From Catajapyx aquilonaris (Eukaryota), in assembly GCA_000934665.2 (NCBI GenBank), contig KZ538502.1, forward strand, positions 1 through 64,000: a stretch of DNA of 64,000 nt. Reading direction: 5' to 3'. The notes under the pieces were generated by a model. That model had not been told where the DNA came from and did not search any database. It saw only the letters and a list, made by a program, of their open reading frames with translations. Shown piece by piece: positions 6,257 through 63,244 of this stretch; position 1 is the first letter of the stretch, and each line of letters opens with the position of its first letter. The translations under genes were made by a program, and so were the position numbers.

Positions 6257-7949
<1,693 letters not shown>

Positions 7950-17100: not shown

Positions 17101-20100
17101 AAAACTTTTTCCGCAAGTTCTGCTTAAATACGCAGGTTAAAACAGCATTTTTTCGTGAGCTATATGTTTTTTCATGTAGGCCTACAGCAGCTCTGTTGAG
17201 GTTTTCAATTTATTCTTTTGCAAGTTCAGAATTTACAGAGTCGCATACAGATCATTTTCATCTTTCACGAGAATAGCCGTAGCATTGTCAGATCATGCCT
17301 GGCGAAGCAATTCAACTTGCCAATCACTTGAGATATGCACGTTTTACTAAACAAAATGCCCATCTATCTATCACCTGATGCACGACCTGATGTGTGAGAA
17401 ACGAGCGCCAAAACATCATAATAAATATGTGGCGTCCAAATGGGGCACCACATGTTCTTTATGAACCTGCGCACAATCAGCCTATAGATCCATACCTGCG
17501 AAAGTCTGATGGTATTTACAATCCCACATTTACAATTTATACAATAGATCTTGGTGTGTGGAGGGGGGGGGGGCAGGAGAAAGAAGATCTATAGGAGGCA
17601 AGAACCTGCAAACTCTGCTGCGCTGTACAGCACAATCATGTACTGCGTAAAGAGTATTTTGCAACCAGCTTCTCCTCCTGCAAGCATTCCACATGCTCAT
17701 TGTTATTTTAAATCATCTGTCACTGTGTACTATCATAGATTTCTCCACGTTTTAGTGTTGTGAAAATTAATTACGTAATCACGTAGTTGCCCCATATATT
17801 GGGTGGCAATTTTCGACTATCAACAAACCACCTGCTGTGGTATGTCAGTATATTAGAGTTCGACGGGTGAATAAAAACAGGGCAACAACCAGCTGGAATA
17901 AAGACCAGAATCTACTATTGTGACGATATTTCTTGTATCCGCATGTTTCATGGTGCAATATAACACTTACTCAATAAGGCTCATATTATGAAAGAACTCA
18001 ACATTCTGTTCATTCCCAACTTCCTCTCATTCCAAGTTCATTGCTGCAGACAGCAGCTGCCTGCACCCTGGCTTGCACCAGGTTAACCAATTACCAATTA
18101 ACCAATTTAATGACGACTGCTGTTCAGGTTATTGGTGTTACCAATAACCTGAACAGCAGTCGTCATTTAATTCACCTTGTCTGTCTGTATAGCAATTAAC
18201 CTGGTGCAGGCAGCTGTGTGCAGCAATGAACTTGGAATGAGAGGAAGTTGGGAATGAACAGAATGTATTGTTGAGCTTTACACAATGTGTCAAGATGGTG
18301 TTAAGTAAATTTATTTCTTACTCTGAAAATTTTAATATGTGGCCCCACACCATTTTTCTCCTGGACTGCGACCTTGTCATGCTGGTCATTCATAAAGCTT
18401 ATTGATGCAGTGACACAAGTGAGCCAGACGCGCTCGAGACGCGGTTCTAATTACGTATGCACTACTTCAGCTCACTTTGCACTGAGAAGTTTACCAACTC
18501 TTGCGCATCCTCTGTGCAAAAGCCACTTAAGATCTTCTTAAATCTGTTTCTATGAAATGTTCTTCGATGCCCGCAGGCTTTGGTCCGAATGGACAGACAC
18601 ATCCCTCGTCAACGGCGAATGCAGAGAGTTGAAGAAGTTATTGCCGAGGTCAGTTCTTCTGAGTCACTTAGCACATTGCAGTTAGGTTTTTTTTTGTAAA
18701 GTACTGCAGAGTGAGTAATGCATTTTTTCCCCTCCTGTCAGCTGGGATTAGTGAAATGTGCCAACACCTTGATCGGCGTCCCTGGTCGCGTCAAGGGCAT
18801 CTCTGGTGGCGAGAAGAAGCGTCTTGCCTTCGCCTGCGAGGTCTTGACCAACCCTCCTCTTCTGTTCTGCGACGAACCCACCTCAGGGCTGGACTCCTTC
18901 ATGGCGCAGAACGTGGTCCAGACCATGCGGTCCATGGCCGAGAGGGGGAAGACCATCGTGGCCACCATCCACCAGCCGTCCTCAGAGGTCTACGCACTGT
19001 TCGACCGCCTCCTGCTTCTGGCCGAAGGTCAGGTCATCTTCACCGGGAGTCCTCAGGAGGCCCTCGACTTCTTCTCGTCACAAGGGCTGGTCTGTCCCCA
19101 TAACTACAACCCGGCCGACTTCTTCATCGAGACAATGGCTATCAAGCCAGGGCAAGTGGAAGAGTGCAAGCAGCGTGTGGAGGACCTCAGCACCGCCTTC
19201 AAAGAGACGAGAGAAGGACAGATGAGCCTCAAGTCTGCACAGGCCATGAACGGCAACCACCTTTCTAATGGAGGTACCAACGGACAGCATCGTCATTCCC
19301 CGTACAAGGCTTCGTGGTGCCAGCAGTTCAGAGCTGTACTTTGGAGGTCGTGGTCCAGCATCTGCAAGGAGCCTATGATCATCCGAGTGCGATTGTTTCA
19401 GACTGTGGTATAGTGCACGACGAATATTATTTAGTTATTTATTAAAATGAATTACACTTCTACATTCTTCATACAAAAATTGAAAAATGGCAAAAGAGAA
19501 ATTACAGCACTTGACATATTGTTTTGCAGGTGGTGGCACTATTGTTGGGGTTAATATATTTTGGACAAGTTCTTAACCAAGAAGGCGTCATGAACATAAA
19601 CGGAGCTCTCTTCCTCTTTCTCACCAACATGACCTTCCAGAATGTCTTCTCAGTGATGAATGTAATGCACTTGATTTGCAATGACGTTGATGAAATTTCC
19701 TAATTCTCTCGTGCCTCGCAGGTATTTTGTGCGGAGCTGCCCATTTTCTTGCGAGAGCATGCGAACGGGATGTATCGCACTGACGTCTACTTTCTGAGCA
19801 AAACTCTGGCCGAGTTGCCCTTGTACATATTCCTTCCAATTGTCTACACCAGCATATGTTACTACATGGTAGGATTCAATCCTTCGGTTGAAAGATTTAT
19901 GATATGCGTGGGCATCATCATTCTTGTATGCAACTCAGCCACTTCTTTCGGTATGTATGACGGCGTTCAACATGTGCGGTGTAACTTCACTCTCTTTTTG
20001 TCACCAGGTTACATGATTTCGTGTGTAAGCAGCAGCATAACTGTCGCCCTGTCTCTAGGACCACCTCTCATCATTCCTCTCATGCTCTTTGGAGGCTTCT

Positions 20101-20517
20101 TTCTCAACAAAGCGTGAGTAGCCTGTTGCCCATTGGCGGTCATTATTGTTGGGAACGACCAAAAGACAAATATGTCCGTGTAAACCCATCTCCTCCCCTT
20201 TTGATTCTCCTGAAAATTTCACATTGGCTGTTTCTCTCTGCAGGTCCGTCCCTGTGTATTTCATATGGCTTCGCTACGTATCATGGTTCCTGTACGCAAA
20301 CGAGGCTCTGAATATCAACCAGTGGGTGGGCGTGGACTACATCAAGTGTGGTAAGTCCAACTCTTCCTGCATGCCCGATGGGAACACGGTCCTAATGACG
20401 CTCAACTTCGAACCGCACAACTTCTACCTGGACATCGGCGCTCTCGTTCTGCTCATCGTGGCCTTCCGCGTCCTGGCATTTTTGGCACTTTTAGTCAAAA
20501 CGTACCGTACAATGTAA
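14184..20517 (+). CDS. w: ABCG half-transporter White, 9 exons
   Basis: Exons 14184-14261, 16457-16679, 16742-16983, 18577-18648, 18742-19407, 19530-19661, 19722-19950, 20008-20113 and 20244-20517. Walker [10 protein letters not shown], signature ISGGEKKRL and [12 protein letters not shown], plus the White-typical [20 protein letters not shown]. Confidence 0.95.
17997..18275. repeat. Foldback/palindromic element in white intron 3
   Basis: The outer arm acattctgttcattcccaacttcctctcattccaagttcattgctgca (from 18001) pairs with its reverse complement ending at 18266. An inner perfect 28-bp stem pairs 18109-18136 with 18140-18167 around a 3-nt loop. Confidence 0.85.
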
Positions 20518-21411
20518 TTTTCTGTAATACTTAATTTCGAAAACTGTTATATTAGATTTGATTTCAAAAATTGTAGATCCAGTGAAGTTATTTCTTTCCT
20601 AAACCACTGTATTTATGGTATTGTATAAAGTGCGCTGAGTATACATTTCTTTACATCCTTTCCTATACATTCCTGTCTCTCTTGACCGTCAGTGATAAGA
20701 TGGGTTGACACATCGACACATGCAAAGGTAGGCTGTGGCTGGGAGAAACTAATCCAGGGATATGCAATACACACATCCAGAGCCCATGTTAACCCAGCTG
20801 TAGTCTGTAAAACCACAGACCTTCATTATTTACATAACGCATTCTCAATTTCCGGAATGAACATAGGCTACTCTCCATGTTAGGGCACGCAGTTTATATC
20901 CCTGGTCCTCAAAATAGCCACTTGTGTTATCAAGATTGACAGCGGGAATATAACGCCAGGAAAATATTTCAAGCACTGTTTCTATCTCGAGCTAGAGATA
21001 TCTGACCCATTTTCCCTCACCTCTGTAACCTCATCCTTGGAAATATGAAGTGCCCTATTTCATTCCAGAAAAATTTGAAACACAATTTTTTATCTCCAAC
21101 AAATTCGGTCTGTCCCTCAATTAGACTCCATGAAACACTGTGACACCATTTTCATCTGGGTCAGTCAATCACTTGCGAGATAAAGGGGTTTAAGAGTAAA
21201 TAGTGCACGAGAGATGTCGCGTGACACTGAATTCTTCACACCAGACCTAGATGCAGTGTATGCTACAGTTGACTTATAATCTCGAGCATTATCGCACACA
21301 CGGCCCTTCGACTCGATTTATGCAGGCGGGGCCTGGGAGTCAAGAGACAATCAGCACACACAGTGAAGCCGCAGGATCCGTTTGGTACACGTGCACAGGA
21401 AGGTACAAATT

Positions 21412-24400
21412 ATGGAAGAGGAAAAGGTAAGTTATTTTAACCTTCAACAAGTGTACACTACGCTTACATCTTCAAACTTGCATAATATGCCCAATTTATT
21501 AGTTGGTGTACAATATTATGTAGGACAGTAGTAGGCTATAATTCTTCAAATTTCAAACACATATTTTTGTACACAATGAGTAAAGTCAAAGCTGGATGAT
21601 CTATTTGTTGACCTGATTGCAGACTTGGCTGAAGACTGAAGACTTGAGTGAAGGTCTGACTTTATCCTGGAGAAATTTGTCAGTGTCCACGTTTCTGAAG
21701 AACAAACGGTGGTTTTCATGTGGGGGAAATTCAACTCGACCTCGAAAGAAGTTGCTTACAAATTGTAAGTCACATGTTAGCACACTAACTAGTACATCTT
21801 GTTAAAGGTGAACTGAGAACTGTATTCCATTTTTAGCATTTGGAATTGCACATCCTGGAAAGATTCTTGCTATTATGGGAGCCAGGCAAGTAATGCAGTG
21901 TGTTGACAATGTAAAATTATTCTCATTACGTGACATTATTGCAGCGGTTCTGGAAAAACCACGCTGATGGATGCATTGGCTCATCGAACACCCCGTAAGT
22001 AAATAATTATGGCACACCAGTAATCCACACCTTATCATTCACTCTGTTGACTCAGGCACCATGATTGTCAATGGAGAAATATGTCTGAATGGCAGGCCAA
22101 CTTCAGGTAATCTCATGCAACACCTCAGTGGGTACGTCTTCCAAGAGGACCTCTTCATAGATACAATGACAGTAATGGAGCATCTCACCTTTCTGGTACA
22201 GCTATTTGACTGACATGTTAGTCAATAAAATGTCTCCCTTTCTCAAGAGAAGAAATGTGCCTTGACCATACCAAAATTCTTGTTAGGCTCGCCTGCAAGG
22301 AAGTGACCAAGAGTTAAACACCACCAAAGTGCGCAAGGTCCTCAACCAGCTGGGACTTGAACGAGTGTCTGGTCGCAGAATAGGTGTCGGCTTGTCTGGT
22401 GGGGAAAGAAAGAGGCTCTCCCTCGCTTGTCAATTGCTTCCGGACCCTCCTATACTATTTTGTGATGAACCCACTTCTGGCTTGGACTCTGCCTCGGCCA
22501 GGGAGCTCATTCAGCTCCTCTCTCAGCTTGGGCAGACTCATCACAAGACAGTGATCATCACAGTTCATCAGCCAGCCTCAGACCTGGTAGCCTTATTCCA
22601 CAAGATTCTGCTGCTTGCACCAGGTGATGGACGGTTGGTCTTCTGTGGGTCTTGTCCAACAGCATTCCAGTTTTTCCAAAGGTAGCAGTACTGTATGAAA
22701 AATACCCTGGTGTTACATTAAAACCTTAATATTCCTGTGTTCCAGTTTGGGTTACACATGTCCTGATACATACAACCCGTCTGATTTCTTCATCCGGACG
22801 CTGGCTGCTATTGGTGGAAAAAATGGTGAGAATGCAGAAGGCATTGAAGAAATGACCTTTCAGTTCGAGGAGTCTGCCAGCTGCAAGCAAGACTTGATGG
22901 AAATTGACTCACTTCACAAAACAGATGATAATACTAAGAGAAAAGACTTCCAGAAATTGTACATGTGAGTACAATACAATCCGTGACTTGTGCAATTCTA
23001 TTTGCATATTGTTCTATCTGCAGTCCGAGAGCCAACTGGTTCATCCAGGTATATCTGCTGTTGTGGAGGTCAACACTTCACATGATCAGGAATCCATCTG
23101 TGCATTTGGTCCGAACTATCCAAAAATTGGTAGGTAGAAAGTGGTGGTAGCATGTGACACACTAAAAATGTCACTTTTGCTTTTAACTTCCTACAGTTTA
23201 TAGCTGTGTTGATGGGGATGTGCTACGGAGGTATTTCCAACAATCAAGGTGGGATAAGGGCAGTTCAAGGAGCAATCTTCTTATTTGCCACAGAAAATAC
23301 TTTCCCTTCAATGTACGCAATGATTCAAGTGATTCCTCAGGATCTGCCAGTAATCTTACGTGACCATCAAGCAGGTGTCTATCGAGTGGATGCCTACTAC
23401 ATTGCCAAAGCAATCTCAGTTGTACGTAAACCTTCACAGTGTATAGTTCTTATTGTAGTTTGGTTCATATTTACGGGAAATATTAATCATGTTGAATTTC
23501 AGATACCTACATTTATTATTGAACCTGTTTTATTCACCTGCATTGCCTATTGGTTCATTGGCTTGAGAAACTCCATTACCGCCTTCATCCTGACAACTTT
23601 GTGCTGCATTCTGACAGCAAATGTGGCAGCAGCTGCTGGTGAGTGTGTCTGTCTCTCCTAATATGGATTTCTGTCTGGTTCCAATCCCCCTTTTGGCGAT
23701 AAGGGAATGAACAAGTAATAATACAGAATATGAGCTGCAATACAGTACTCTATTGTAATAAAAGTATGTGTTGGATTTTTTAAATGTTAAAACTGTGGAC
23801 AAGTACACTGTGGTCTAAAAATATCTAATAGATTAACCACTCCAGAGAAGTATTTTTGCAACCAATTTGCAACTGGGCTCTTGATAAATTAATTCTCTTC
23901 CAGGGTGCGCGTTTTCGACTGCATTTGAGAATGTGGGTGTTTCTCTCGCTTACATTATTCCTTTTGAATACCTCCTCATGCTCTCAGCAGGGCTTTTCAT
24001 TAACCTTAGGTAAGGCAAAACAACATGTTACCTGTGCAATCAATGCAACAAGATAAAACTTGATGAAAATTCATACTTCTTCCAGGTCCTTTCCAGTCTA
24101 TGTCAGTTGGACCAAGTACTTTTCCTGGTTTATGTACTGCAATGAAGCTATTGCTATTACTCAGTGGCATGGAGTCACCAATATCAGTGAGTATCACAGA
24201 CTCAGATATGCAAATAGTGGTGCAGCCCAATAGTTCCATCTGAATCTTTTTTGTATGATGCCAAGCATATGGAAAGGAAGCCAATAGTGCTCTCTCTTTA
24301 CCATTGGAAATACAACCAGCTCTAAATGCTTTTTTAATAACAAAAAGATGAAGTGACGTAACCTTGGACGTAACATTGCAGGTTGTGAGTTTACAGCCTC

Positions 24401-25700: not shown

Positions 25701-31111
<5,411 letters not shown>

Positions 31112-44000: not shown

Positions 44001-47000
44001 GATTTCCACTTCTTTCTCTTCAATATCTTCTACCATTTCTTTCTCCACTTCAATTTTTTTCTCCTCTACCTCAGGCATCTTCACATGACCTTCCTTCATT
44101 AACCAGGTCTCAGCCTCATCAAGATAATTTCCCAAATGGTCCTCTTCTATTTCCACAGGAACCACCTTTGCCTTGAGAATCAAGCCAACAACCACACCTC
44201 GCCAAGTGGTGAACAGTGGAGTAAGGCATCCCTCCACACAACAAGGGAGCCACAGGTCATCTACTTCTCCCTGCATTATATGTGTCATACAAAAAGGGTC
44301 TCTCTTCAAGACATGTTTGGTGACCCCCAACTCATGGTGCAACAAAATAATATTGCAGGAGTTACGGAAAAAAAGAGGAAACTGTACAGCTAAGGTAAGT
44401 AAGGTAAGGTAAGGTAAGGTAAGGTAAGTCTGATAACAAGTGGAGTCACAATAACGCATTCTAGGCAAGAACACTTTTCTTTCGACAAATAGTACAGATG
44501 TGAAACACACTCACCTCTTCCATTGCCACCAAAGTAATGCATATCTCCATTGTCCCAAATGCAGGAACACTTCCCTGAGATGGCTCCACTTCTACTCTTG
44601 TGTGGAACTTGCTCTTACCAATGGCTTGTGCCCATGCAAATTCACCAGATACGCCACTGTGGTTTACCAAAGTGGCCACAAATTGATGTCGTACATTCAA
44701 GTATATGGCATCTTCACCTGCACATGTTCGAGTTACACATTAAAAATATTTTGAGTGTCCCTTTCCCACCGACTATAATGAATCTCTTACACAAGTGCAA
44801 CACACTGGGTTGAAGTGTTAATACAGGTCTTGTGACGTGTCCCACAACAGGAATGATATGAGTAGTAGACGAGCCCACACACTGGACCTCCAGAGCCATT
44901 GACACAGGACCTAAGTTCTGCAATGATTTGTTTGTTACCTCTCTTCAATGATACTCCAGGTGAAAGATTATTATGTTGCCTTGAAAATTAGCCACATGCC
45001 TTCCATGCCAAGAGTAGTCATGTGTGTTGGTTGGTAAAAAACATTGATGGGCAGTATTGTTCCAACTCACAAGAATTTTCAGGACAACTCATACAAGCCT
45101 CACATGTCATGCACACATCATGCATGGTACAGTACCAGGATTGACTAGTATACCGATTGGGAATCCTTCATCTCAAATGCTTGGGGCCTGAATGGAATAC
45201 TTGCATCTATAAAATGGGACAGCTTTTGGACTTACTTTCGATATCCACTCTATTTCTGCTGCATCTAAAGATCTAGTAAAATTTAATGCTTGATAGGAAA
45301 GGCGTTCGGAGGGCTGATTAGCAATTCTAATTAAAAACTGGAGCCGTTGTTTTGCTATGTTCACAAATAAATGCCACCTTCCTGTGTCAAGTCTTGCTAA
45401 ATAACCCGCTGCCCTTTTTGGGAGGGAGCAAAACTCCTTAATAAATTGAGTTTGGATTTTTTCGATCTCTAAGAAATGAGCCAGCGACCATATTGGGGCC
45501 ACACATAGAACCGCTGGGAGAACTTGTGCACTGAAGATTTTTACTGCATGTGCAAAGTTAGGTATTTTAAGCTTAACGAGAGTATGCCATAACGCGTTTA
45601 TAATTATTCCAGTTGCTTTCAAGTACGTAGCTTCCATCATCTTCCTAGATGACGTTTCTGATGAAAAAATAACCTCTTTTGTGTGTTATTTTGCCAGTGA
45701 AACTTACTTAGCCTGTTGTGGGAGTCTTCGTTTGTTTTTCGAAAAACTACCTTGTTGGTCTTATTTATATTAATGTTTAATCCTTTCTAGTCCAGGTAGT
45801 CAGCCATTAAGTTCAGCAGTCTTTGTAAATAGAGTTGATGGTCAATTAGTCATACAAGGTCATCAGCAAACTGTAAACAATGGAACTCCTTTGTTCCGGG
45901 TCCAAAATTAACTCCTGGTACATCATTTTCCTCCCATATTGTTGCCAAATCTGCCAAAAACAAATTAAATAGAAGAGGAGATAAACGTTCCCCCTGAAGG
46001 ACTCCCTTAGTGATTTTAATATTAGGATATCCATTCTGTCCAATAATAATTGAACCATTCTCATAGATCTTTCGAATTAATGCAATAATTAGTCTTCCTC
46101 CCAATCCTAGTCTTCCTGGGGAATCGAATAGTTTCTGGTGGGATACATCATCGAAGGCTTGTAAGGTCGAGAAAGGCTGCAAAAAGTTTTCCTTTTGGTT
46201 TGGCTGTGTATTTTTGAATAATGATATTTAGTGTAAATAAGTGGTCGCTGGTGTTCCTATTAGGCTGAAAACCCATCTGAAATTCAGGTAGAATGTCCCA
46301 ATCTTCAGCTCACTTTCTTATTCTAGCTTCCATAATATATTGCTGTAAGCACTTTAGTAACATTATTCAGTAGTAATATTGGATGGTAGTTTGCCGCTTC
46401 TAATGGATCCCCTCCTTTAAAAATAGGTATCACATTTACTGTGACCAAATCAATCGATATTATCATGTCGTTTAGGAATTGATTGAAAATCGACAGTAGC
46501 ATTTCCTTTAAAGTTGAGGAAGAGACAGACCAAAGTTCATTTGGAAGCAAGTCAGGGTCTGTTGCTTTCCCTTTTTTTAAAAGTTTTTTCAAAGCTGTTT
46601 CTAGCTCTTGCATTTTAAAGTCAAGATCCAGCAGATGTGGCAGGTAGATAGAGTACAATTCTAATGGACCTGATACCTCAGATTTGTAATAATCCGTTAA
46701 GTATCGAAACCAGTTACCTTCAGGTAGTTTCGTTGTTCTTGGTTTAAGTTTGAATTTTTTAAGTGTCCCAAAAATCGTGTGAGTTATTAGACCCAATAAG
46801 TTTTTGAAGTGTATTTGAGAAGTAGGCCTACAGCTTTTTTTTTATGCTATCAGTTTTTTGGAGGCTCTATCCAAAAAGATTTTCTTACCAGACTCTTCGT
46901 TAGTTTTTTGCCATTTTTAAAATTCCAATCTGGTAGCTTTTTCGTACTTCTCAGGCTGGGCGTGTAAGGCTCTTTAGGTTGTAACAATAAATCCATAATC

Positions 47001-53910: not shown

Positions 53911-55022
53911 CACTGGCACCTCCCTAACAGATGCTGATATGAACCAATGTACACTATGGAGTGGAGTTTGGGATCACGTGAAGTTAGGGAGGAAGCCAAG
54001 TCAACACGCCACTCGCACATATATCTCTCTCTTCAACAAGCTCACTAAATTTTGTGGAAATGAATGTGAAAGAGAATGATGGAGTGAGCGCAGTTCCAGG
54101 TTTATCTTGCCTTTTTTTTTTGCTCCGACTATAAAGTGCATGTGAAATCCATATCCACATCCAACAGGTTGCTTTTTTTTGCATACATGGACAAACCAAA
54201 CTGCAATTGCCTTGACTAGAACCTGGTCCAAGCCTCAACTAATGAACAAAAGTGAAAAAGGAAAAATGGTCCCAAACAGTTCCCATATTTTACAAGCATT
54301 AAAATGACGAGATCTCAGGTGTGTGGCCAATGTGAATCTCTGCTTCCCAAAGCTTCCCACTTTTTCCCTTATATCAACAAAGTGTTTCTGAATGATGAGG
54401 TAGGTTAGATTCAATATTACGTAAGCTTTTTGTAGGCACAGTTATGTTGCACTTGGAAAAGCAATTAAATCTTATGCAAAGGACCCCCATTAAAACTTCA
54501 CCGAATACATACGATACATCGCATATGGAAAAAAAAAGGTTGGGCAATTAGAGGACACTCAAATGTGTAGTACAAGTTGACAAAAAAGGTGACACATGAC
54601 TGAGAACACAGGGTAAGAATATAGCACTGAGCACTCAGTCCAACCGTGTATAGGATGGCAGTAGGGATGACAAATATACCTGAAAATAACTGCCTTTTGA
54701 GCATGGAAATCGATACAAACATGTCAGACCGAAGTGCACAGTCAACAAGGATGTCACTAAAATAAGGCAGTAATCAAGACCTGGGCAATATATATCCGCA
54801 TGAAAAAGCACAGACGGTAAACAAGAAGAAATCAATAGCAAAGTGGGCCTATTACCATCCCTACCATACAGAGAAGGAAAGAGGATACAACAGAAGGGAA
54901 CATTTCTGTTACTTCAGAACAACTTTGGTGGGCCAAATCAAAGCAGTTAAAAGAATCACTTTGGGTGGCAACAAAATAATGTTCATCACTGCAGGCTTAT
55001 TCTAGGAGGAGCCAACAGCCAA

Positions 55023-58000
55023 TCAGAGGGACTTGCGAGTCCGGGTGGGCAGATAATCCACCTTCACAAGTATCTGCGACTTTGCTTGTCTTGGAAACTC
55101 TCGTCTGTGGATGGTGGATATCTCGCTTGGCGGAGAGGAAGGTGATTCATTACTGGTCCGTTCCTCATGGTCGTCTTTTCCCTCTGACCTGCCCACACTT
55201 GCACTTTCAACTGGCTCTGCAATTGAGATGGGTGGCTTCTTCCTCTGCCTGGGCTTGTCTCTAGGCCACCCAGTCATGTTACGTTTCCTCTTCTTTGCAC
55301 GTCTGAAAGGAGTCACTGTTGAGTCGGCCTCTGACGTAGTGCTCGTCACATCAGATCCTGCTCCGTTGTCACAAGTACCACTAACTGCGCCCTCCACCTT
55401 TTCCAGACAAGCACATGAACTAAATTCGCTCACCATGCTCACTACGTCTGGCTCACAAAATGTCACTGGATTAGGTGTTGGTCTCTTGAACTTCCTAGGT
55501 CGACCTCTAGTGGGAGTGGTCTTGACACTAGGTCCCAATCCAACCTCTAATCCAGCTGCACGAATATCCTCCTCATTAGCAACACCACCCACACCTTTAA
55601 GGTATGCCTCAAGGTCACCATCAGCTGACTCGAGAGCTGCCAGCCTCTGCCTTGAAATGCCCATCAGCAGTGCCAAAGTGGAGGCATGGCAACGAGGTGA
55701 TTTGCGTGGCAATGATGAACTGGACTTTGACTTCCGTCGTCCTGGACCAACTTTAGGATAGATCAAGTCCTGGGGAAGCTCATATGGGAGGAGGAAGTGC
55801 GGCTTCTCCTCCTTTGCATCAGGAACTGAGTTTGCAACATCACCATTGTCTTGCCGCTGGTATGTCCTGAACCAGGGCTCTCCAACTGGGACACTCTCAA
55901 AACTAAACTTGAGTCGGGACATCCACTCTGGAAGATCTTGGTCTGGGTTGTCATTGGATTCCCGGCTCTCCTCATCTGTTAATGAAGCACGGCGATGGAT
56001 CCTATGGGTTGAACGAAGCTTGGACGACAGGATCTCAAACTTGTAGTACTCATGGTTGTCTGATATAAGTCGCACTTCACAACTGCGTCTCCTCTTTTGC
56101 TTTGCCTCCTCCGAGTCGTCATCATCAGCCTCTGCCTCTGACTGACCCCCCTTCTCTGAGGGACTTGCATCTTTGCCTTTTAATTCTTCATCACCCTCGA
56201 CAAGTTCTGATTCCGCTTCAAGTCCAGCCTCTTTCGCCCCAAATCCCATCTCTTCTTTAAGGCCCCCTCCTTTCCCTTCCCTACGCTTCTCTTTCTCTGA
56301 AAGCACTGCTTCTTTTTCACCAGGCTCCTCTTCACTGTCCTCCTCGTCACTGGAATCTTGCTCACCAAACAAGAACACTTCTGCCTCACTCAAGCACATC
56401 TGCGAAGCATTCCTCCTCACCTTAACCCGCCTCCTCTTCAAGCTATCACCATTCACATGCTGCCTGCTTGAACGCAACTTTGAGGGAAGCACTTCCACTT
56501 TGTAGTACTGCTCATTGTCTCTCAGAAATTTCTCGTCACCGGCCACCTTTCGACGCTTCTGCTGGCAATCACGCTTTAGGAACTCGATGGATGCGAGCCC
56601 ATTGCTCACTGCACTTAAGGCACTCTTGCTGGATGCCAGGTTGTTGTTGTTCGTCGATACCATTCCGCTGACTGTCCGTCTTCGTTGGCCATTGAATGTT
56701 CCTTCCACAAGCACTGGTCGTTTTTCCTTGGCAGGGTAACTGTTTGTCCATGTGGCCGAAGGGGCAATGCGTTGATCCCCATAGGTAGTTCCGTTGCGGA
56801 GTGTCAGTCCCTTCTTGATTTGAGGTTCTGAGTAAACTCTGGCACTTCGGAGGCAACGTCGTACTGGCTCCTCCTCACTATTTCTGGACGAGAAGAAAAT
56901 CTTTGTAACCAACTCAACGAGATGATTTATAAATCAGAATGAATTAGAACTTGTATGCTATTATTTATTAAGTAAAACTAATAGTGGCATTCTCTGTCAA
57001 TCATCATTACTAATACATCACAATTACCAAAATGTGAATATTAGTGTCAGGAAATCACACAAAAGCATGGCAAGGCATGTAACAGGAATTTATGTCCTAG
57101 GTGAATNNNNNNNNNNNNNNNNNCCCCCCCCCCCCCAATCCAAATTGGATATATTTTGAGTTAATCTCACATGCCTCTGCATGTACAGTATTTGTGCAGC
57201 TTATGCCCCAAACCCACTTGTCTTTCCCCTGAGTAAAGAGCAACAATTAATCATCAGCCAGAAATGGTTAAGATATTTTGAGAAGCAACTTCTCTGAAAT
57301 TGGGGACATGTTCTCCTAGTTTCACATACACTGCAGTACCCTTTTCACTGCTTATGTAATGACAGCAGTTTTAAAAGAGATTAAGACACTTAAAACAGCC
57401 CCCAACTTTTGTGTAAAAAGTAAGATCTACATTCGATAATTCTGGAAATGTGAACCAAAGCCAAATTCTAAGTCAAATAAATTTTTATGAAGTAGAACTT
57501 CACACTGTCAATAATTATGTGAAACAGGCCTACATGGCTGAACATCAATAAAGCACAATGGTAAACATTCAGAGCAGCTCATCAGTTTCATCATGCTGAG
57601 CATGCATTGTCCCAGTTAACTTCTACATTAGTATGGGTATTCAACCTTCCTCGCTTCAACAGAATTTACCCTGAAATAATCTTCCAAAGTTGTTCCTAAC
57701 ATCACCGACTCAAGGGAAGTGTGGAATATTGATAAGCATGACAACTATCTACGGCTGGTTTCATTAGTTACAACAATCACTTTACCAATCATTGACCAAT
57801 CCAACCATACGGAACTGATATAATGATTTGGTGTTTTTTCTGATCATGCGAGTCAGTTGCTATCACAGAAGGTACCCCCCACAACTTTAACTTTACAAGT
57901 CCCAAAAAAGAAATAACAAAAATGCATTGGAAACTGATATATTTTTGCCTGACTACCATTGGTGGCAGATAAGACCTTAACAATGATATTTTCCATGTAC

Positions 58001-61000
58001 CAATACTGACACTTCATCTATGGTAACATGAATTATGCCTTGAAAGTCAAAGTAATTACAAAAAAACAGCAATAAAGGGATAAAGAAGTGAAAAGCCAAA
58101 GCTGCATGCAAGCAGGAAAATAAAATTGCAACACACGCCCACGAAACAAGTTCAACATCTCATTCAAATTCCACAATTGCATGTTAAAGAAGATGGGTAG
58201 GTTATTAACAATCTTCTGTACAGAGATTTCAAATCAGGATGGAAAGTTGTGTTGCCATTTTACCCTCAGATACGCTAACTACAATACCATAAGTATAACC
58301 TTTAAACAAAACTTACATCTATCATTAGGGATAAGCAAAATAAAAATGTGAATTGATAAAACAGGTAATTTACTGCATGATAAACTGAGGGAGACGATTT
58401 CCAGTCAACTCCAGTGGATGCATTCGTCTTCCAGATCTCAACTCCCAACGCATGTCCTCCTTTCTCTCACTCCCTCTCTTTCTCTCCCTCTCGCCCTGCC
58501 TTTTGACTTTGCTTTTGTTTACAAGTGAGGGTGACCGTGTCTCACTGGAACCCCGGAACTGTAAACACAGGCATGTTGTTGGGTTATTAAAGGGGGGGAA
58601 GGTGAGGTGCCAAAAGGTGCAAATAGAAACAACAATAATTTTGAGTCAAGGAAATACTGGTCATTCTAGTTAACGTCACACTAAATACCTCCAATGTACT
58701 CTCAATTTATCTCTCATTACTCCTAATAATCCAATCATTAAATTAGTTCAACGCAAGAAATGACTAATGCAACACATACTTTCATCCTACACTAAAGAAG
58801 ACATGCTCATCAAGAGCAATATTTTATTTTGGTGCATCAGACTTCCAATGCGACAAACTTGTGCATTTCCCATGCCCCCATTTATAGAAGAACGTGCAGA
58901 ATAAGGAAACAACACACCAAGGTATATTAAATTAAAGCTTCCAGCTAAATTAAAACAACAAAGCCACAAAACTCTTCTCCTGATTCATCCTATCAGGCTA
59001 CCTTCGAAACAAAACTCACCTGGAAATGGATCCTTTGAACACTTGCAGCCCCACATCCTTTCCATTCCCTTCCTTAATGAGACGATCCAGCTCCTCGTAG
59101 TTTCTTTCGTCACTCACAAAGCGAAGGTGTAGCTCACACTTGAGATGCTCTGCAAGGCTACGGTAAGTCACTCCACAAATTTCGCAATAGCTCCGCTTTG
59201 CTGCCTGCACGTTGGCCACCGACACCTGCCGTTGCTGCCGTTGCAGTTGCTCCTGGTGTTGGTGGCGTCCTTGCTGCCTTGGCGACTTTTTGATGTTGGT
59301 AATTCTCTTCTTCCGCTCGGTTACTTGGTTGGCGTCCTCAAACGGTGAGCTAAGTGACCCAGTCCTCACACGCAGGACAGGCCAACGAACAAGCTCTCTG
59401 TAAATTGGTATCTCCTCACAGTCCTCAACCTGTACAAAAAAATATTAACTTAATGATTATTGTGAATGAGACTAATGAAACCAGATATAATTATCCAAGG
59501 AAATGTGTCTTGGCCCTCCGTACCAACATCAGCAAAACGTATGCACCTTGTAATCAATATTGCCCTTGTGGTGCACATCATATACTTGCACATCATATAC
59601 TTGGCTGAACACATCTCATGTTAGATACCCTAGCTATTAAAGACTATCATTATTATTGCTAACTCAGCTGCTAATGAGCTTTTCCTCAGTAGGCATCTAC
59701 TTTTTCTCCCAGGTAGGCACAGCATTTCCCCCCAATAAACACTACACCCTTCCTTGGCATGAAATTTACTGAGGGTGTTTCACCAACTCACCAAATTCGA
59801 TTTAAATTTTCTTCCTCCCTATGGAACATTACACTCACCTTAATGTATGGCACGCTCAGACGTCGGACACTCACAACAGGCAAACGGCGGTTGGCGACAG
59901 TATCTGATTTTTGTGGTGATGGCAGTGCCGCCTTCTTCAACCCCGCAATGTACTCAACAGCCTTTTTAACAGACCATATCTCGGTGCCCCAGCGCTGGGC
60001 ATTGGCTAGGACATCAGAGGTTCCACGCCTCTTGCTCCGTGCCTGGTCTAGCATAGCATCCACCCGGCTCCTCAGCTGGCGGACCCCTGCCCCACCATTG
60101 GCTCCTGACAAGATCCCTCTGGTTGCTGGGCGGGTAGGTGTAGCAGGAGAGGCATTGCCTCTCCCAACTGAAGTGCCGCTAAGGCGGCGCTGGTCAGTCA
60201 CAATGATGTCTATGTCCTTGCTCAGAAATGCTTCAATCACCTGCAATCATGACAACTAGCTCAGTCAAACTATAACACTGGTTATTAAGACCTACAGGCT
60301 GCAAATATTCCATTTCAATGAAGAAACCCAACTTAAATTCCCACCATTTTTAAACATAAAAATACCTTATCATCAGTATTAATATAAAGCACAGGTTGTT
60401 GGTATGTCTGTCACGTCACACCTATTTAACCCACTTCCCGAGTCCCGAGAGCGCTGAAACTTGGCACGCCCATGTCTTACGTTTCGCTGATACCAGGAAA
60501 ATTTGGCAACAAAGCGCTTTTATATTTTTAAAAAGGCGTGGGGGGCAATAATTGTCATTTTTGAGGGGAGTTATTTTTTAAAGTTATGAACAAATTTCCG
60601 TACTTTCGCGCACGTTCGTCGCCATACTGCATTGCTGCCCTGCTGTGTACACTGGTAGAGGAAGTTTCTATGTGGAACTCCACAAATCAATATCCTCTCA
60701 ACAATATCTCAGGTTTCAAGATCCCATGGAGATGACACCATTCATATAGGCGGCCTGCCCTGACTTTGACCTTACGTCATCATTTTGTGTACCAACTCCT
60801 AGTCAAAGGAAATCTGCCAGAACGCACCCCTGGAACCTCACACTGTTCAAGTTTCCATGGAGATTCCCTCTTGCAACAATGGGAGTAAATTGAGTAAACA
60901 CTGACAACAACAGAACCACGAATACCATTGAAAACCGCTGTTTACGTCCGCATTTACTCCCATTGTTGCAAGAGGGAATCTCCATGGAAACTTGAACAGT

Positions 61001-62851
61001 GTGAGGTTCCAGGGGTGCGTTCTGGCAGATTTCCTTTGACTAGGAGTTGGTACACAAAATGATGACGTAGGGTCAAAGTCAGGGCAGGACGCCTATATCA
61101 CGATTTCATGTCGATGTCTCGCGCCTCTCTCTTTTACACTTCGTATCACCGTAAATTCAATGCATCAATAATATATAAAGCCCCTCTCCGTGGATATAGG
61201 GGGCTATAGGAGGATAGAAAAGATCTTGCACTTCCCAACGTCGTACAGTGCTGGGCATATTAGCCGTCGCTGAATTTTTTTTTTTCGGCGGCGGCGGCGC
61301 TGCCGTTACCTGGCAACCCTGTCCAGAGGGCCAATTCAAACATCAGCCCATGGAGAGCGCTTCCATTGTTGCCACTGTTTACAAATCGAGTGAGTGACCC
61401 CAAAATGACTTATTGCTTCTAACATCATTATTTTCCCTGTTTTCTCCTGCATATCCCTGCAGATACTGTGTAAGCAGGCAGAAGAGACCCGTCGCTGGGT
61501 TGTCCGCGTCACTCACTCGATTTGTAAACAGTGGCAACAATGGAAGCGCTCTCCATGGGCTGATGTTTGAATTGGCCCGCTGGACAGGGTTGCCAGGTAA
61601 CGCCGCCGCCGAAAAAAAACATTCAGCGACGGCTAATATGTCCAGCACTGTACAGGGCTGGGAGTTGGCTCGTTTAAATATAAGAGCTGAACTCACATTA
61701 GAAACTCAAAAAGTTGTACTTACAGCCCCAAGTGACTCCAAATCTCTCGTCAGTGACCTGACATCAGCCTGGCCCTTCACGTCAAGGTAGTAATGCTTTC
61801 CTTTCAAAGGCTTCTTCTCAGGAGACTTTTTCACTGCAATGTTAACAAGAACATTTTATTAATCAATTGTTTTCTTCATGTTTTCAGTTACAATGTCATG
61901 ACAACAACATATTTCATTCAAACAAGGATGGGTCATAAGGGTCTTAATTACTTGTAAAGTGGGCAACACTGGAAAGAGAACTTCTATCCTAATGCCAATG
62001 GGCAGACATTGCAGCTCAATCCTTCATGCACATTGACATTTGCTACCAATGTCATCTAAATCCTTGTTACAACACCCCTTGCTATCTCTGGCTTTCACCT
62101 CTCAGGCTGAGCTGCAGTAATTATAAATACATTTTACGTTTCATATAGGTTCCACACTACAAGGTCTTACGTGGGTGTACTTCCATGAATTAAGAACATG
62201 TTGTAGAATTATTCAAGGTGAGTTGTGCCTAACAGTCAATAAAATTGGTATACAAGATTTTAGAACTGCTTTCCAACCCATATGCATCTATGCCTGACTA
62301 GGTAGCTTGTCAACTACAGCCTTTTACCTACCAACCGGCGAGGCCTCTACTCTTTTTCACACAAGTAATAGTACCTTAAAATATCAAGCAGCTTTGTATG
62401 GTAATCACCAGATTACTTCAAGGTCAACTTTTGCAATAAGTCAAAATGAACAGTGCCAGAAAACTGTCACCCAATTCCATTATGTGGTAAATTGTTGAAA
62501 CCCAACCCAACACCCTTATAATAAGCCTACAAAAACTGCTAAGGGCAAGGCTGTTTCACGAATTCTATGGCAAGTGGGACAGGATATGCATGTTATGAAA
62601 TTCACAAGTTGCGCAGTGATTGAGTGCCAGTTAAACGCTGAACCTGATGGATTTATCGCAGATGGTAAGCAGGCGGCAATGGGGTTGCTATAGGCCTGCA
62701 ATTCCACCTGCTCATCTCCCACTTCGCTCACCGAACATGTGAAGCAGCCTCCGTCCGCAAGCGTACTCCGACAATGAACCTCACCTCTATCTCCTTCCTT
62801 GAGTCGTACCCACTTCCCATTCACCTTCTGCTTCTTGGAGGGCGAAACCAT
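55023..62851 (-). CDS. chif: Chiffon / DBF4 (Cdc7 activator) fused to a long C-terminal extension
   Basis: Exons 62851-62785, 61833-61724, 60240-59839, 59429-59020 and 56883-55023 give a 949-aa ORF. Motif N is KPLKGKHYYLD..LGAVIEAFLSKDI, motif M is PYIKVED..PIY, and the motif C zinc finger is YCEICG..Y..LAEHL...LH. The C-terminal blocks are FSFESVP..EPWF.TYQRQD, RKSPRCHASTLA and KRNMTGWP. Confidence 0.88.
57107..57123. other. Assembly gap (17 N)
   Basis: A run of n followed by a poly-C tract. Confidence 1.
58374..58786 (-). CDS. chif: Candidate chiffon cassette: 7-nt micro-exon (58786-58780) plus 185-nt exon (58558-58374)
   Basis: Splice contexts are tctttagtgtag|GATGAAA|gtatgt and gtgtttacag|TTCCGG...ATGCA|gtaaat. 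The sum 7+185=192 nt keeps the frame between the phase-2 flanking exons with no stop. Confidence 0.5.
60372..60720 (+). mobile_element. Possible non-autonomous Helitron-like remnant
   Basis: The start atcagtattaatataaagc..gtatgtctgtc and internal ctgaaacttggcac resemble arthropod Helitron 5' regions. No clear 3' hairpin or CTRR end was found. Confidence 0.25.
60744..61098. mobile_element. Near-perfect palindromic MITE (147-bp arms) in chiffon intron
   Basis: Arms 60744-60890 and 60952-61098 are reverse complements with about 2 mismatches by eye. Termini are tata|GGCG ... CGCC|tata. Confidence 0.85.
61246..61650. mobile_element. Tc1-like palindromic MITE (~150-bp arms) in chiffon intron
   Basis: ta|CAGTGCTGG ... 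CCAGCACTG|ta termini. Arms 61246-~61397 and ~61508-61650 are nearly identical reverse complements. Confidence 0.85.
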
Positions 62852-63244
62852 CCTGGCCGCGGAGGAGCCGCTGCTGCAAATTCAACCAGGCACATTTGCA
62901 CCAGCGACACCCTCAACAACGCCCCTGCTCAACAACAGTCCAGCCTCCAATCTGCACAACCACCTTCAACACCCTGTAACAACAACAACAACAAAATATG
63001 ATGCTGCACTCAGTCTAGCCAACCCAACCCTTAAAAAGTTGGCTCCCTCAGTAATGCCAACACTAGTTTGCACAACCCACATAAGACTGTTGCTGGGCTC
63101 GGCTGGCAACAACAAAGGAGCAGTCTCTGGATTCACACACACAGTCCCCCCCCTTCCAAGGCTTGTTGTTTACCCCACCGGAAAAACTCCCCAAAACCGC
63201 CCACCAGCCGAGGGGGAAGTTGCGAGAAAAACGGTCACAACCCT

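What the first reader, a model, noticed from the sequence alone, without database searches (positions are those of the whole stretch)
58370..59020. A 7-nt micro-exon as a possible frame switch between Dbf4-only and full-length Chiffon
Seen: the zinc-finger exon ends in phase 2 (AG|gtgagt, 59020) and the long C-terminal exon starts in phase 2 (56883). Between them lie a 7-nt candidate micro-exon GATGAAA (58786-58780) and a 185-nt exon (58558-58374) with a long pyrimidine-rich upstream tract. Including both adds 64 in-frame codons (1013 aa), and skipping both gives 949 aa. Using the 185-nt exon without the micro-exon stops after SSGVPVRHGHPHL, leaving only the Dbf4 N/M/C motifs. The micro-exon itself contains an ATG in frame with the C-terminal half. 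Established: Drosophila chiffon yields separable products, a Cdc7-activating Dbf4 part and a C-terminal part that nucleates a Gcn5 acetyltransferase (CHAT) complex. Inference: here splicing could set the ratio of the replication-kinase and histone-acetylation modules.
Basis: partly seen in the sequence, partly recalled or inferred. Interest (0 to 1): 0.8.

Follow-up and report, generated by a model that had tools for sequence, protein, structure and literature searches.

The report
Alternative exon splitting a Dbf4/Chiffon gene
In this arthropod's Dbf4/Chiffon gene a 185-base optional exon, seen spliced in RNA, sits exactly between the replication-kinase half and the long C-terminal half and most likely cuts the reading frame to give a Dbf4-only protein, whereas the proposed 7-base micro-exon has no support.

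Summary
The sequence is as described: every coordinate, splice dinucleotide, frame and protein length (949, 1013 and 342 aa) checks out. The gene is a minus-strand Dbf4/chiffon ortholog with a zf-DBF exon and an insect-chiffon-like last exon.

Spliced contigs of one public run (X1) show three of the five predicted junctions: 59020>58558, 58374>56883 and 59020>56883. So the 185-nt exon is real and is both used and skipped. Joined directly, it shifts the frame and stops after SSGVPVRHGHPHL. That leaves a 342-aa protein with the zf-DBF finger and the regions that align to Dbf4 motifs N and M. The next three ATGs all open the C-terminal frame, giving a 646-codon ORF.

The micro-exon is unsupported. 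Neither of its junctions was reported, and 20 equivalent AG..GT candidates lie in the same intron against 14.8 expected from shuffles. The tool could not say whether extra letters sit inside the 59020/58558 joint, so it is not strictly excluded.

Whether the C-terminal half nucleates a Gcn5 complex here is unknown; that binding was detected only in Diptera (PMC9796610). Verdict: partly supported; a new variant of a known system, resting on one run.

The parts
62785..62851 (-). Exon 1, coding part (ATG at 62851-62849; donor GAG|gtgagg)
   Evidence: Joint 61833<>62785 in an RNA contig. This is the first in-frame ATG after an upstream stop.
61724..61833 (-). Exon 2 (start of the BRCT-like motif N region, KPLKGKHYYLDVKG)
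   Evidence: Joints 61833<>62785 and 60238<>61722 (cut +2); sequence read.
59839..60240 (-). Exon 3 (rest of the motif N region)
   Evidence: Joints 60238<>61722 and 59427<>59837 (both 'cut +2'). Weak DBF4_BRCT match of 22.2 bits, below the cut-off of 27.
59020..59429 (-). Exon 4: motif M plus the DBF zinc finger (motif C); ends in phase 2 at CAG|gtgagt
   Evidence: Pfam zf-DBF, E 5e-15, 55.7 bits against a cut-off of 24.8. RNA contig record 5 covers 59020-59427. Donor matches the consensus at 9 of 9 positions.
58780..58786 (-). Candidate 7-nt micro-exon GATGAAA (not supported)
   Evidence: The sequence is present. No joint with it was reported. It is one of 20 equivalent candidates against 14.8 expected. 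A competing AG lies 5 nt upstream (tttAGtgtAG).
58374..58558 (-). 185-nt alternative cassette exon
   Evidence: Joints 58558<>59020 and 56883<>58374 in RNA contigs, and the skipping joint 56883<>59020. Single copy in the window. Weak donor GCA|gtaaat, 5 of 9 positions.
58519..58521 (-). TAA stop that ends the Dbf4-only frame (342 aa) when the exon is joined directly to exon 4
   Evidence: It lies 145 nt upstream of the exon's donor.
58470..58492 (-). 23-nt uninterrupted purine (GA-rich) run inside the cassette exon; possibly a splicing enhancer (inference)
   Evidence: longest purine run 23 nt; the exon is 63% purine.
58451..58453 (-). First ATG after that stop (65 nt downstream), in the frame of the C-terminal half; opens a 646-codon ORF
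   Evidence: The next two ATGs (58423, 58378) are in the same frame, and the first out-of-frame ATG comes 246 nt after the stop.
57945..58373 (-). Intron stretch just downstream of the cassette exon that carries RNA cover (read-through, alternative 3' end, or another transcript; unresolved)
   Evidence: Contig record 4 covers 57945-58216 at 100% identity. The depth arithmetic leaves 713-775 depth x nt unexplained in bin 58192-58475. AATATA lies at 57943-57938.
55023..56883 (-). Last exon: 619 codons of Chiffon-type C-terminal extension plus the stop (55025-55023)
   Evidence: 19 homologs, including 'protein chiffon' of Anthonomus grandis. Local matches to the motifs around PRKSPRCHASTLA and KRKRNMTGWP (68-78% identity over 18-22 residues). 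RNA contigs cover 55703-56883.

Best explanation
The window carries an arthropod Dbf4/chiffon gene on the minus strand. Exons 1-4 encode the Dbf4 part: the zf-DBF finger plus the regions that align to motifs N and M. One large last exon encodes the Chiffon-type C-terminal extension.

In the 2.1-kb intron between the two parts lies a 185-nt cassette exon (58558-58374) that is alternatively spliced.
- Skipped: the message encodes a fused 949-aa protein.
- Included and joined directly to exon 4: the frame shifts and stops after 13 codons. The main reading frame then gives a 342-aa Dbf4-only protein with all of the Dbf4 part.

The rest of that message still holds the C-terminal half as a separate 646-codon frame. 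It starts at the first ATG, 65 nt after the stop.

Shown: the exon, its three junctions and the frames. Inferred: that the joint is direct, that the short protein is made and active, and that the cell uses exon choice to set the balance between the Dbf4-only and fused forms. The 7-nt micro-exon is most likely not used.
For: - Gene identity. zf-DBF scores E 5e-15 in exon 4. The last exon finds 19 homologs, 4 of them with a precomputed zf-DBF domain and one named 'protein chiffon isoform X3'. Fused relatives match both exon 4 and exon 5.
- Splicing. Contigs of run X1 join 59020>58558, 58374>56883 and 59020>56883. They also join the three upstream introns, all with GT..AG ends on the gene strand.
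- Only two continuations. Listed pieces plus exactly two junction contigs, each with 30 nt on exon 4 and on exon 5, explain the exon-4 and exon-5 bins to within 0.3 depth x nt. Only two continuations from the exon-4 donor therefore reached contig level.
- Frames. The isoforms give 949 and 342 aa. The stop TAA lies at 58521-58519, and the next three ATGs are all in the C-terminal frame.
- Position. The exon sits about 25 residues after the zinc finger. In Drosophila the first 400 aa suffice for Cdc7 binding and the break between the two products lies at 400-500 aa, just after the finger at 307-356 (PMC9796610, section 6).
- Precedent. Complete Dbf4-only ORFs with the same MVSP start, ending 10-29 residues after the finger, occur in 4 clusters of other organisms' contigs. 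Nine MVSP-starting clusters are fused forms.
- Splice signals. The exon's weak donor (5 of 9) and its 23-nt purine run fit a regulated exon.
Against: - Only one run of one study, kept as contigs. It may come from the same sample as the assembly. Its kind is not on record, and contig depth gives no isoform ratio.
- The three key joints are flagged 'between: not known', so a direct join is my reading, not a measurement.
- The stop lies 145 nt upstream of the last exon junction and would leave more than 2 kb of 3' sequence. The message may therefore be degraded rather than translated.
- No protein data exist.
- The exon is open over all 61 codons in the frame that a +1 insertion would need. That happens in 8.9% of dinucleotide shuffles and 3.8% of intronic 183-nt windows, a weak hint that something restores the frame.
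- Conservation of the exon could not be tested. No related genome is held, and no relative closer than about 40% identity was found for this gene.
- Unexplained RNA cover flanks the exon on both sides, so further transcript forms exist.
Confidence: 0.6

Rival explanations
1. Poison exon. The 185-nt exon is an unproductive cassette whose premature stop sends the message to nonsense-mediated decay. Its role would be to lower Chiffon/Dbf4 output, not to make a Dbf4-only protein.
For: The stop lies 145 nt upstream of the last exon-exon junction, and a 3' region of more than 2 kb would follow it. The exon peptide has no family and no similarity to relatives in any frame tested.
Against: Exon-containing junction contigs were assembled in the same run as the skipping contig, so the form is not vanishingly rare at steady state. 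The truncated frame keeps exactly the whole Dbf4 part and nothing else. Stand-alone Dbf4 ORFs ending at the same place exist elsewhere.
Confidence: 0.2
2. The 7-nt micro-exon (or another +1 event) is co-included with the 185-nt exon. This gives a 1013-aa protein with a 64-residue insert in the linker. Omitting the micro-exon then acts as the frame switch.
For: The arithmetic is right. The exon is open in exactly that frame, as in 8.9% of shuffles. The micro-exon donor AAA|gtatgt matches 7 of 9 positions. The tool cannot exclude letters between 59020 and 58558.
Against: Neither micro-exon junction was reported. Twenty equivalent candidates lie in the intron against 14.8 expected by chance. An AG 5 nt upstream competes for the acceptor. 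The depth arithmetic leaves room for only two continuations from exon 4. The 61-aa peptide has no similarity to 168 related proteins (best E 1.2).
Confidence: 0.1
3. The exon belongs mainly to a separate transcript end inside the intron. It could be a composite terminal exon (exon 4 > exon 185 > read-through to about 57945 and polyadenylation), which would give a short Dbf4-only message. Or it could be an internal start upstream of the exon that gives a C-terminal-only message from ATG 58453. This can coexist with the best explanation.
For: RNA cover continues from the exon into the intron to 57945 (record 4, 100% identity; 713-775 unexplained depth x nt). Some cover also lies upstream (96-328 and 126 depth x nt). 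The parts of this intron further downstream, and introns 1-3, are joined across without cover outside repeats. The donor is weak and AATATA lies at 57943-57938. Anthonomus grandis has an annotated C-terminal-only isoform X5 with another 5' end.
Against: This is inferred from bin arithmetic only, because the piece table was cut (30 rows not shown). No canonical AATAAA, no poly(A) loose end and no strand information are available. Low-depth retained intron or an unrelated transcript would look the same.
Confidence: 0.15

Closest known systems
Drosophila melanogaster chiffon (Chiffon-A / Chiffon-B, 'dicistronic' gene)
   Same: It is the same gene family, with a Dbf4 part (motifs N, M, C) followed by a long C-terminal extension. 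Two separable products break just after the zinc finger. Chiffon-B is still made when Chiffon-A carries nonsense mutations (PMC9796610 passages and section 6; PMC8917357 passages).
   Different: In the fly all coding sequence is one ~5-kb exon, no alternative splicing accounts for the two products, and a translational mechanism is invoked. Here an intron separates the modules and a cassette exon supplies the stop. The protein is 949 aa, not 1695 aa.
Frame-shifting 'poison' cassette exons coupled to nonsense-mediated decay (general class; recalled, not looked up)
   Same: It is an optional exon whose length is not a multiple of three, with a premature stop more than 50 nt before the last junction.
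   Different: Here the truncated frame ends precisely at a domain boundary and keeps a complete functional module. Decay was not tested.
Anthonomus grandis chiffon isoforms X1-X6 (XP_050304601-608)
   Same: A non-dipteran arthropod in which transcript variants separate the modules. Isoform X5 (849 aa) lacks the zinc finger and keeps the whole C-terminal part.
   Different: Separation there is by an alternative 5' end, not by a stop-carrying cassette exon. The other isoform differences are 3- to 19-residue indels elsewhere.
Ada2b-PA / Ada2b-PB splice isoforms that decide between CHAT and SAGA/ADA in Drosophila
   Same: Alternative splicing of one gene decides which complex is built (PMC8917357 passages).
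   Different: It is a different gene, and both isoforms are in-frame proteins.
Animal micro-exons of 3-27 nt (recalled class)
   Same: The size and the AG/GT flanks of GATGAAA fit.
   Different: No junction evidence exists here and the occurrence is at chance level.

Membership tests
Dbf4 / Chiffon (Cdc7 activator) | DBF4-type zinc finger (motif C) | tested here: met
   Pfam PF07535 zf-DBF, E 5e-15, 55.7 bits against a cut-off of 24.8, residues 83-125 of the exon-4 frame.
Dbf4 / Chiffon (Cdc7 activator) | Motif M upstream of the finger | tested here: met
   Homologs align from residue 7 of exon 4 (VEDCEEIPIYRELVRWPVL region) through the finger. This holds in phmmer (113 hits at E<=0.001) and in blastp to fused and short relatives. 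No separate Pfam motif-M hit was obtained.
Dbf4 / Chiffon (Cdc7 activator) | BRCT-like motif N | tested here: inconclusive
   DBF4_BRCT scores 22.2 bits, below the cut-off of 27. The KPLKGKHYYLDVKG start resembles relatives by eye.
Dbf4 / Chiffon (Cdc7 activator) | Binds and activates Cdc7 | not testable with these tools
   No assay. In Drosophila the first 400 aa suffice (PMC9796610, section 6).
Class III Dbf4 (Chiffon-type C-terminal extension) | Long C-terminal extension homologous to insect Chiffon, with its conserved motifs | tested here: met
   19 hits at E<=0.001, including 'protein chiffon isoform X3' at E 1e-14. Several local matches to fused relatives.
CHAT complex nucleator (Chiffon-B) | C-terminal domain binds Gcn5 | not testable with these tools
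   Detected by two-hybrid only for Drosophila, Lucilia and Aedes. Not detected for bed bug, nor for honey bee Chiffon-B tested with Drosophila Gcn5. Inconclusive for Tribolium (PMC9796610, section 9).
Alternative cassette exon | Both inclusion junctions and the skipping junction present in RNA | tested here: met
   Joints 58558<>59020, 56883<>58374 and 56883<>59020 in contigs of run X1; one run, one study.
Micro-exon | Junctions 59020>58786 and 58780>58558 (or 7 extra letters in the joint) in RNA | tested here: inconclusive
   Not reported, but the joint is flagged 'between: not known'. The sequence signal is at chance level.
NMD-coupled poison exon | Premature stop more than 50 nt upstream of the last exon junction | tested here: met
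   The stop ends at 58519 and the donor is at 58374: 145 nt.
NMD-coupled poison exon | Inclusion isoform stabilised when decay is blocked | not testable with these tools
   Needs an experiment.
Dicistronic chiffon (two polypeptides from one message) | Downstream product translated independently of the upstream frame | not testable with these tools
   Only the layout is shown: stop, 65 nt, then three in-frame ATGs and a 646-codon ORF.

The most novel reading that the evidence does not exclude
Inclusion of the 185-nt exon turns the fused Dbf4-Chiffon message into a natural two-cistron message. The Dbf4 frame stops inside the exon, and the C-terminal half is translated on its own from the first ATG 65 nt later, or from an internal start of transcription at this exon. 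Splicing would then do in this arthropod what an unknown translational mechanism does in Drosophila. It could be the older way of uncoupling the replication-kinase activator from the chromatin module.
Probability: 0.15. Interest if true: 0.75.

Novelty: new variant of a known kind. Interest (0 to 1): 0.5.

Why it matters
Drosophila chiffon makes a replication-kinase activator and a chromatin-complex scaffold from one gene. How the two are produced separately is still called an uncharacterised translational mechanism, and alternative splicing is explicitly ruled out there (PMC9796610, PMC8917357).

Here a different arthropod has an intron at the module boundary. That intron holds an alternatively spliced, stop-carrying exon. 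If the exon is used as a switch, separate control of the two halves would be older than flies and achieved by different means in different lineages. It would also offer a tractable system, since exon choice can be measured and manipulated, for asking why the two functions are linked in one gene.

The two paper searches that addressed this (7 and 6 papers) returned no report of such splicing for chiffon/Dbf4 in any arthropod.

Tried and rejected
- Run search: no RNA holder listed. The single holder X1 has no kind on record; laying it showed spliced contigs.
- Using the 'both' values (3, 5, 0) of the joints to prove direct abutment. I rejected this because they equal what the reference alone predicts, and the tool flags 'between: not known'.
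- Contig depth as an isoform ratio (4.7, 5.8, 3.8). Rejected, because contig depth does not rank parts of a gene.
- Exon 4 against longer proteins by word search: none at E<=0.001 among 229 candidates.
- Pfam on the 61-aa exon peptide and on the last exon: no family.
- blastp of the exon peptide against the 168 related proteins on disk: best E 1.2.
- Logan ORFs that hold only the C-terminal part (P0001, P0003, P0005, P0016) as evidence for two-cistron messages. Rejected, because their contigs could not be fetched and the ORFs may simply be exon-limited.
- Two metagenome scans for the contigs of the Dbf4-only ORFs: first none, second one 1287-nt locus with only the N-terminal part at 39% identity (L001). 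Neither was useful.
- ESM Atlas for P0152: only generic Dbf4 clusters.
- Own-genome search: no genome held.
- Earlier findings of the scan: none for this genome or for 'chiffon'.
- Search for the 2019 J Cell Sci paper: not in the library. It is known here only through citing passages.
Full report
**What is in the sequence**

On the minus strand the window holds a Dbf4/chiffon ortholog.
- The zinc-finger exon ends ...TTTCCAG|gtgagt at 59020 with two bases of a codon.
- The long last exon starts ...tcgtccag|AAATAGT at 56883 with the third base.
- ag|GATGAAA|gtatgt lies at 58786-58780.
- A 185-nt stretch, tttacag|TTCCGG...ATCATGCA|gtaaat, lies at 58558-58374.

The splice forms translate as follows:

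| Form | First ORF |
|---|---|
| Skip both | 949 aa |
| Include both | 1013 aa |
| 185-nt exon alone | 342 aa, ending ...GSISSSGVPVRHGHPHL (TAA at 58521-58519) |
| Micro-exon alone | 333 aa |

**What the gene is**

- The exon-4 frame carries a DBF zinc finger: Pfam zf-DBF, E 5e-15, 55.7 bits against a cut-off of 24.8.
- Exon 3 gives only a sub-threshold DBF4_BRCT match (22.2 against 27).
- The last exon and the 61-aa exon peptide match no Pfam family.
- The last exon finds 19 proteins at E<=0.001 among 8000 scored candidates. The best is 39% identical over 25% of the query. Named hits include 'protein chiffon isoform X3' of Anthonomus grandis and proteins of Tribolium, Zophobas, Euwallacea, Pediculus, Cacopsylla, Armadillidium and Amphibalanus.
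- blastp shows that fused relatives match both exon 4 and exon 5.
- A full HMMER scan with exon 4 gave 113 hits at E<=0.001, only 2 at E<=1e-10, and a top identity of 37%. This lineage therefore has no close relative in the libraries.
- A PI3K exon elsewhere in the window is 83-85% identical to its top-ranked hits, which come from several insect orders, with nothing closer. The organism is an arthropod that I cannot place further.

**RNA evidence**

The run search listed one holder, X1. Its kind is not on record, it is kept as Logan contigs, and it holds 0.61 of the sampled words.

Laid on 54500-63000, its contigs are clearly spliced. They join 61833<>62785, 60238<>61722 and 59427<>59837, which are the three upstream introns. 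They also give three joints at the intron in question:

| Joint | Skips | Contig depth |
|---|---|---|
| 58558<>59020 | 461 | 4.7 |
| 56883<>58374 | 1490 | 5.8 |
| 56883<>59020 | 2136 | 3.8 |

All have CT..AC ends on the + strand, which is GT..AG for the gene. The two junctions that involve the micro-exon were not reported. The 185-nt exon is thus a real cassette exon, both used and skipped in the same run.

Limits of this evidence:
- It is one run of one study, possibly the sample behind the assembly.
- Contigs drop rare forms, and contig depth is no isoform ratio.
- The tool flags these three joints 'between: not known'. It cannot say whether extra letters, such as the 7 of the micro-exon, lie inside the 59020/58558 joint.
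- The 'both' values (3, 5, 0) equal what the reference sequence alone predicts, so I do not use them as proof of abutment.

**Depth arithmetic**

The listed pieces plus two junction contigs, each with exactly 30 nt on exon 4 and on exon 5, reproduce 18 of the 21 bins between 54500 and 60463 to within 1.6 depth x nt. The exon-4 bin is within 0.1 and the exon-5 bin within 0.3. This leaves room for only two continuations from the exon-4 donor, so at most one version of the exon 4 > exon 185 link reached contig level.

The three bins around the cassette exon are not explained. They leave 713-775 depth x nt in 58192-58475, 96-328 in 58476-58759 and 126 in 58760-59043.

Record 4 covers 57945-58216 at 100% identity. 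Together with the unexplained cover, it means RNA cover continues from the exon into the intron to about 57945, with some cover upstream of the exon too. The rest of this intron and introns 1-3 are joined across without cover outside repeats.

I cannot tell whether this is a retained intron at low depth, an alternative 3' end (AATATA lies at 57943-57938, with no AATAAA), an internal start, or another transcript.

**The micro-exon**

In the 461-nt intron there are 20 AG..GT segments of 30 nt or less that would restore the frame without a stop. Dinucleotide shuffles give a mean of 14.8, and 500 of 500 shuffles have at least one. Under stricter flank criteria there are 3 observed against 1.7 expected. 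The presence of ag|GATGAAA|gt is therefore what chance gives.

Its acceptor is preceded by a second AG 5 nt upstream (tttAGtgtAG). Using that AG would give a 12-nt insert with an in-frame TGA.

In its favour:
- Its donor matches the consensus at 7 of 9 positions.
- The 185-nt exon is open through all 61 codons in just the frame that a +1 insertion would produce. That is seen in 8.9% of shuffles of the exon and 3.8% of intronic 183-nt windows.

Against it, the peptide in that frame has no family and no similarity to the 168 related proteins on disk (best E 1.2). I put its use at about 10%.

**What inclusion does**

Joined directly, the exon ends the frame 13 codons after exon 4. The 342-aa product keeps the whole Dbf4 part and nothing of the C-terminal half.

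[quoted passage not shown] The exon here sits at the corresponding boundary.

After the stop, the first three ATGs (58453, 58423, 58378) are all in the frame of the C-terminal half. The first out-of-frame ATG comes 246 nt after the stop. From 58453 the frame runs 646 codons to the normal stop. The exon-containing message thus has the layout of a two-cistron message. Whether the second frame is translated is unknown.

The stop lies 145 nt before the last junction, so decay of this form is a serious rival.

The exon has a weak donor (GCA|gtaaat, 5 of 9), a 23-nt purine run and 63% purines. These suit a regulated exon, but that is inference.

**Relatives**

Among the 126 Dbf4-like proteins on disk that reach the finger, 17 start with MVSP as this gene does.
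- Ten of them (nine clusters) are fused forms with a Chiffon-type C-terminal region.
- Seven (four clusters: P0043/P0152, P0128/P0163/P0164, P0159, P0096) are complete Dbf4-only ORFs that end 10-29 residues after the finger.

Their organisms are unnamed and their contigs could not be fetched. They show only that such stand-alone frames recur, not how they arise.

In Anthonomus grandis six annotated isoforms exist. X5 lacks the finger and keeps the entire C-terminal part through another 5' end. The others differ by 3- to 19-residue indels elsewhere.

**Literature**

In Drosophila, chiffon has one ~5-kb coding exon. No alternative splicing accounts for the two products, the switch is thought to be translational, and the gene is called dicistronic (PMC9796610 passages and section 6; PMC8917357 passages).

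The C-terminal extension is described as insect-only. Its binding to Gcn5 was detected by two-hybrid only in Diptera (PMC9796610, sections 9 and 10). Calling the C-terminal half of this gene a histone-acetylation module is therefore not justified yet.

Two searches ('chiffon, Dbf4, CHAT, Gcn5': 7 papers; 'chiffon, Dbf4, alternative splicing': 6 papers) returned no report of stop-carrying alternative exons in chiffon/Dbf4 of other arthropods. I judged this from listings and abstracts, and read passages or sections of only two of the papers.

The 2019 J Cell Sci paper was not in the library and is known here only through citing passages. The supplements of PMC9796610 (species tables, alignment) were not read and may bear on the 'insect-only' statement.

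**Verdict**

The micro-exon part is at chance level and unconfirmed.

Exon choice here decides between a fused frame and a Dbf4-only frame. The switch is the 185-nt exon itself, not the micro-exon, and the function of the C-terminal half in this lineage is open.

It is a new variant of a known system, resting on one run. Confidence in the best explanation is 0.6 and interest is 0.5.

Noticed in passing
window 57945-58373 and about 58559-58800: RNA cover flanks the cassette exon inside the intron: record 4 at 100% identity, plus 713-775, 96-328 and 126 unexplained depth x nt in three bins. The rest of this intron and introns 1-3 are joined across without cover outside repeats. It could be an alternative 3' end, an internal start, or a retained intron.
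   Followed up: partly
P0036 (Armadillidium nasatum, 1391 aa): An isopod crustacean protein matches both the exon-4 Dbf4 region (E 1e-16) and the Chiffon-type C-terminal region (43% identity over 89 residues, E 7.5e-17). The papers read describe this extension as insect-only.
   Followed up: partly
P0020-P0024, P0009 (Anthonomus grandis chiffon isoforms): Five of six annotated isoforms start just before the zinc finger, without motifs N and M. Isoform X5 lacks the finger too and is C-terminal-only.
   Followed up: partly
P0160 versus P0159/P0162 (unnamed JGI contigs): In another organism's Dbf4-only ORF cluster, one member diverges in the middle of the zinc finger to a different 19-residue tail. 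This suggests an alternative or frame-shifted ending there as well.
   Followed up: no
window 60744-61098 and 61233-61663 (intron 2): Three inverted-repeat pairs lie here (147 nt at 99%, 104 nt at 96%, 52 nt at 88%). RNA contigs of depth 18 and several loose ends are laid on 61316-61599. They look like expressed, MITE-like repeats.
   Followed up: partly
window 57107-57123: An assembly gap of 17 N lies next to a run of 13 G (gene strand) in the intron between the cassette exon and the last exon.
   Followed up: no
window about 25870-30600, minus strand: A class I PI3K catalytic-subunit gene lies here (exon 83-85% identical to the top-ranked insect orthologs). In Zophobas morio the PI3K and the Dbf4-type protein carry nearby locus tags (Zmor_026526 and Zmor_026530), so the neighbourhood may be conserved.
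   Followed up: no
window 18700-23700 (+), 6500-6950 (-), 45170-46840 (-): By eye only, from the ORF list: ABC-transporter-like exons, a triosephosphate-isomerase-like exon, and reverse-transcriptase-like ORF fragments. None was tested.
   Followed up: no
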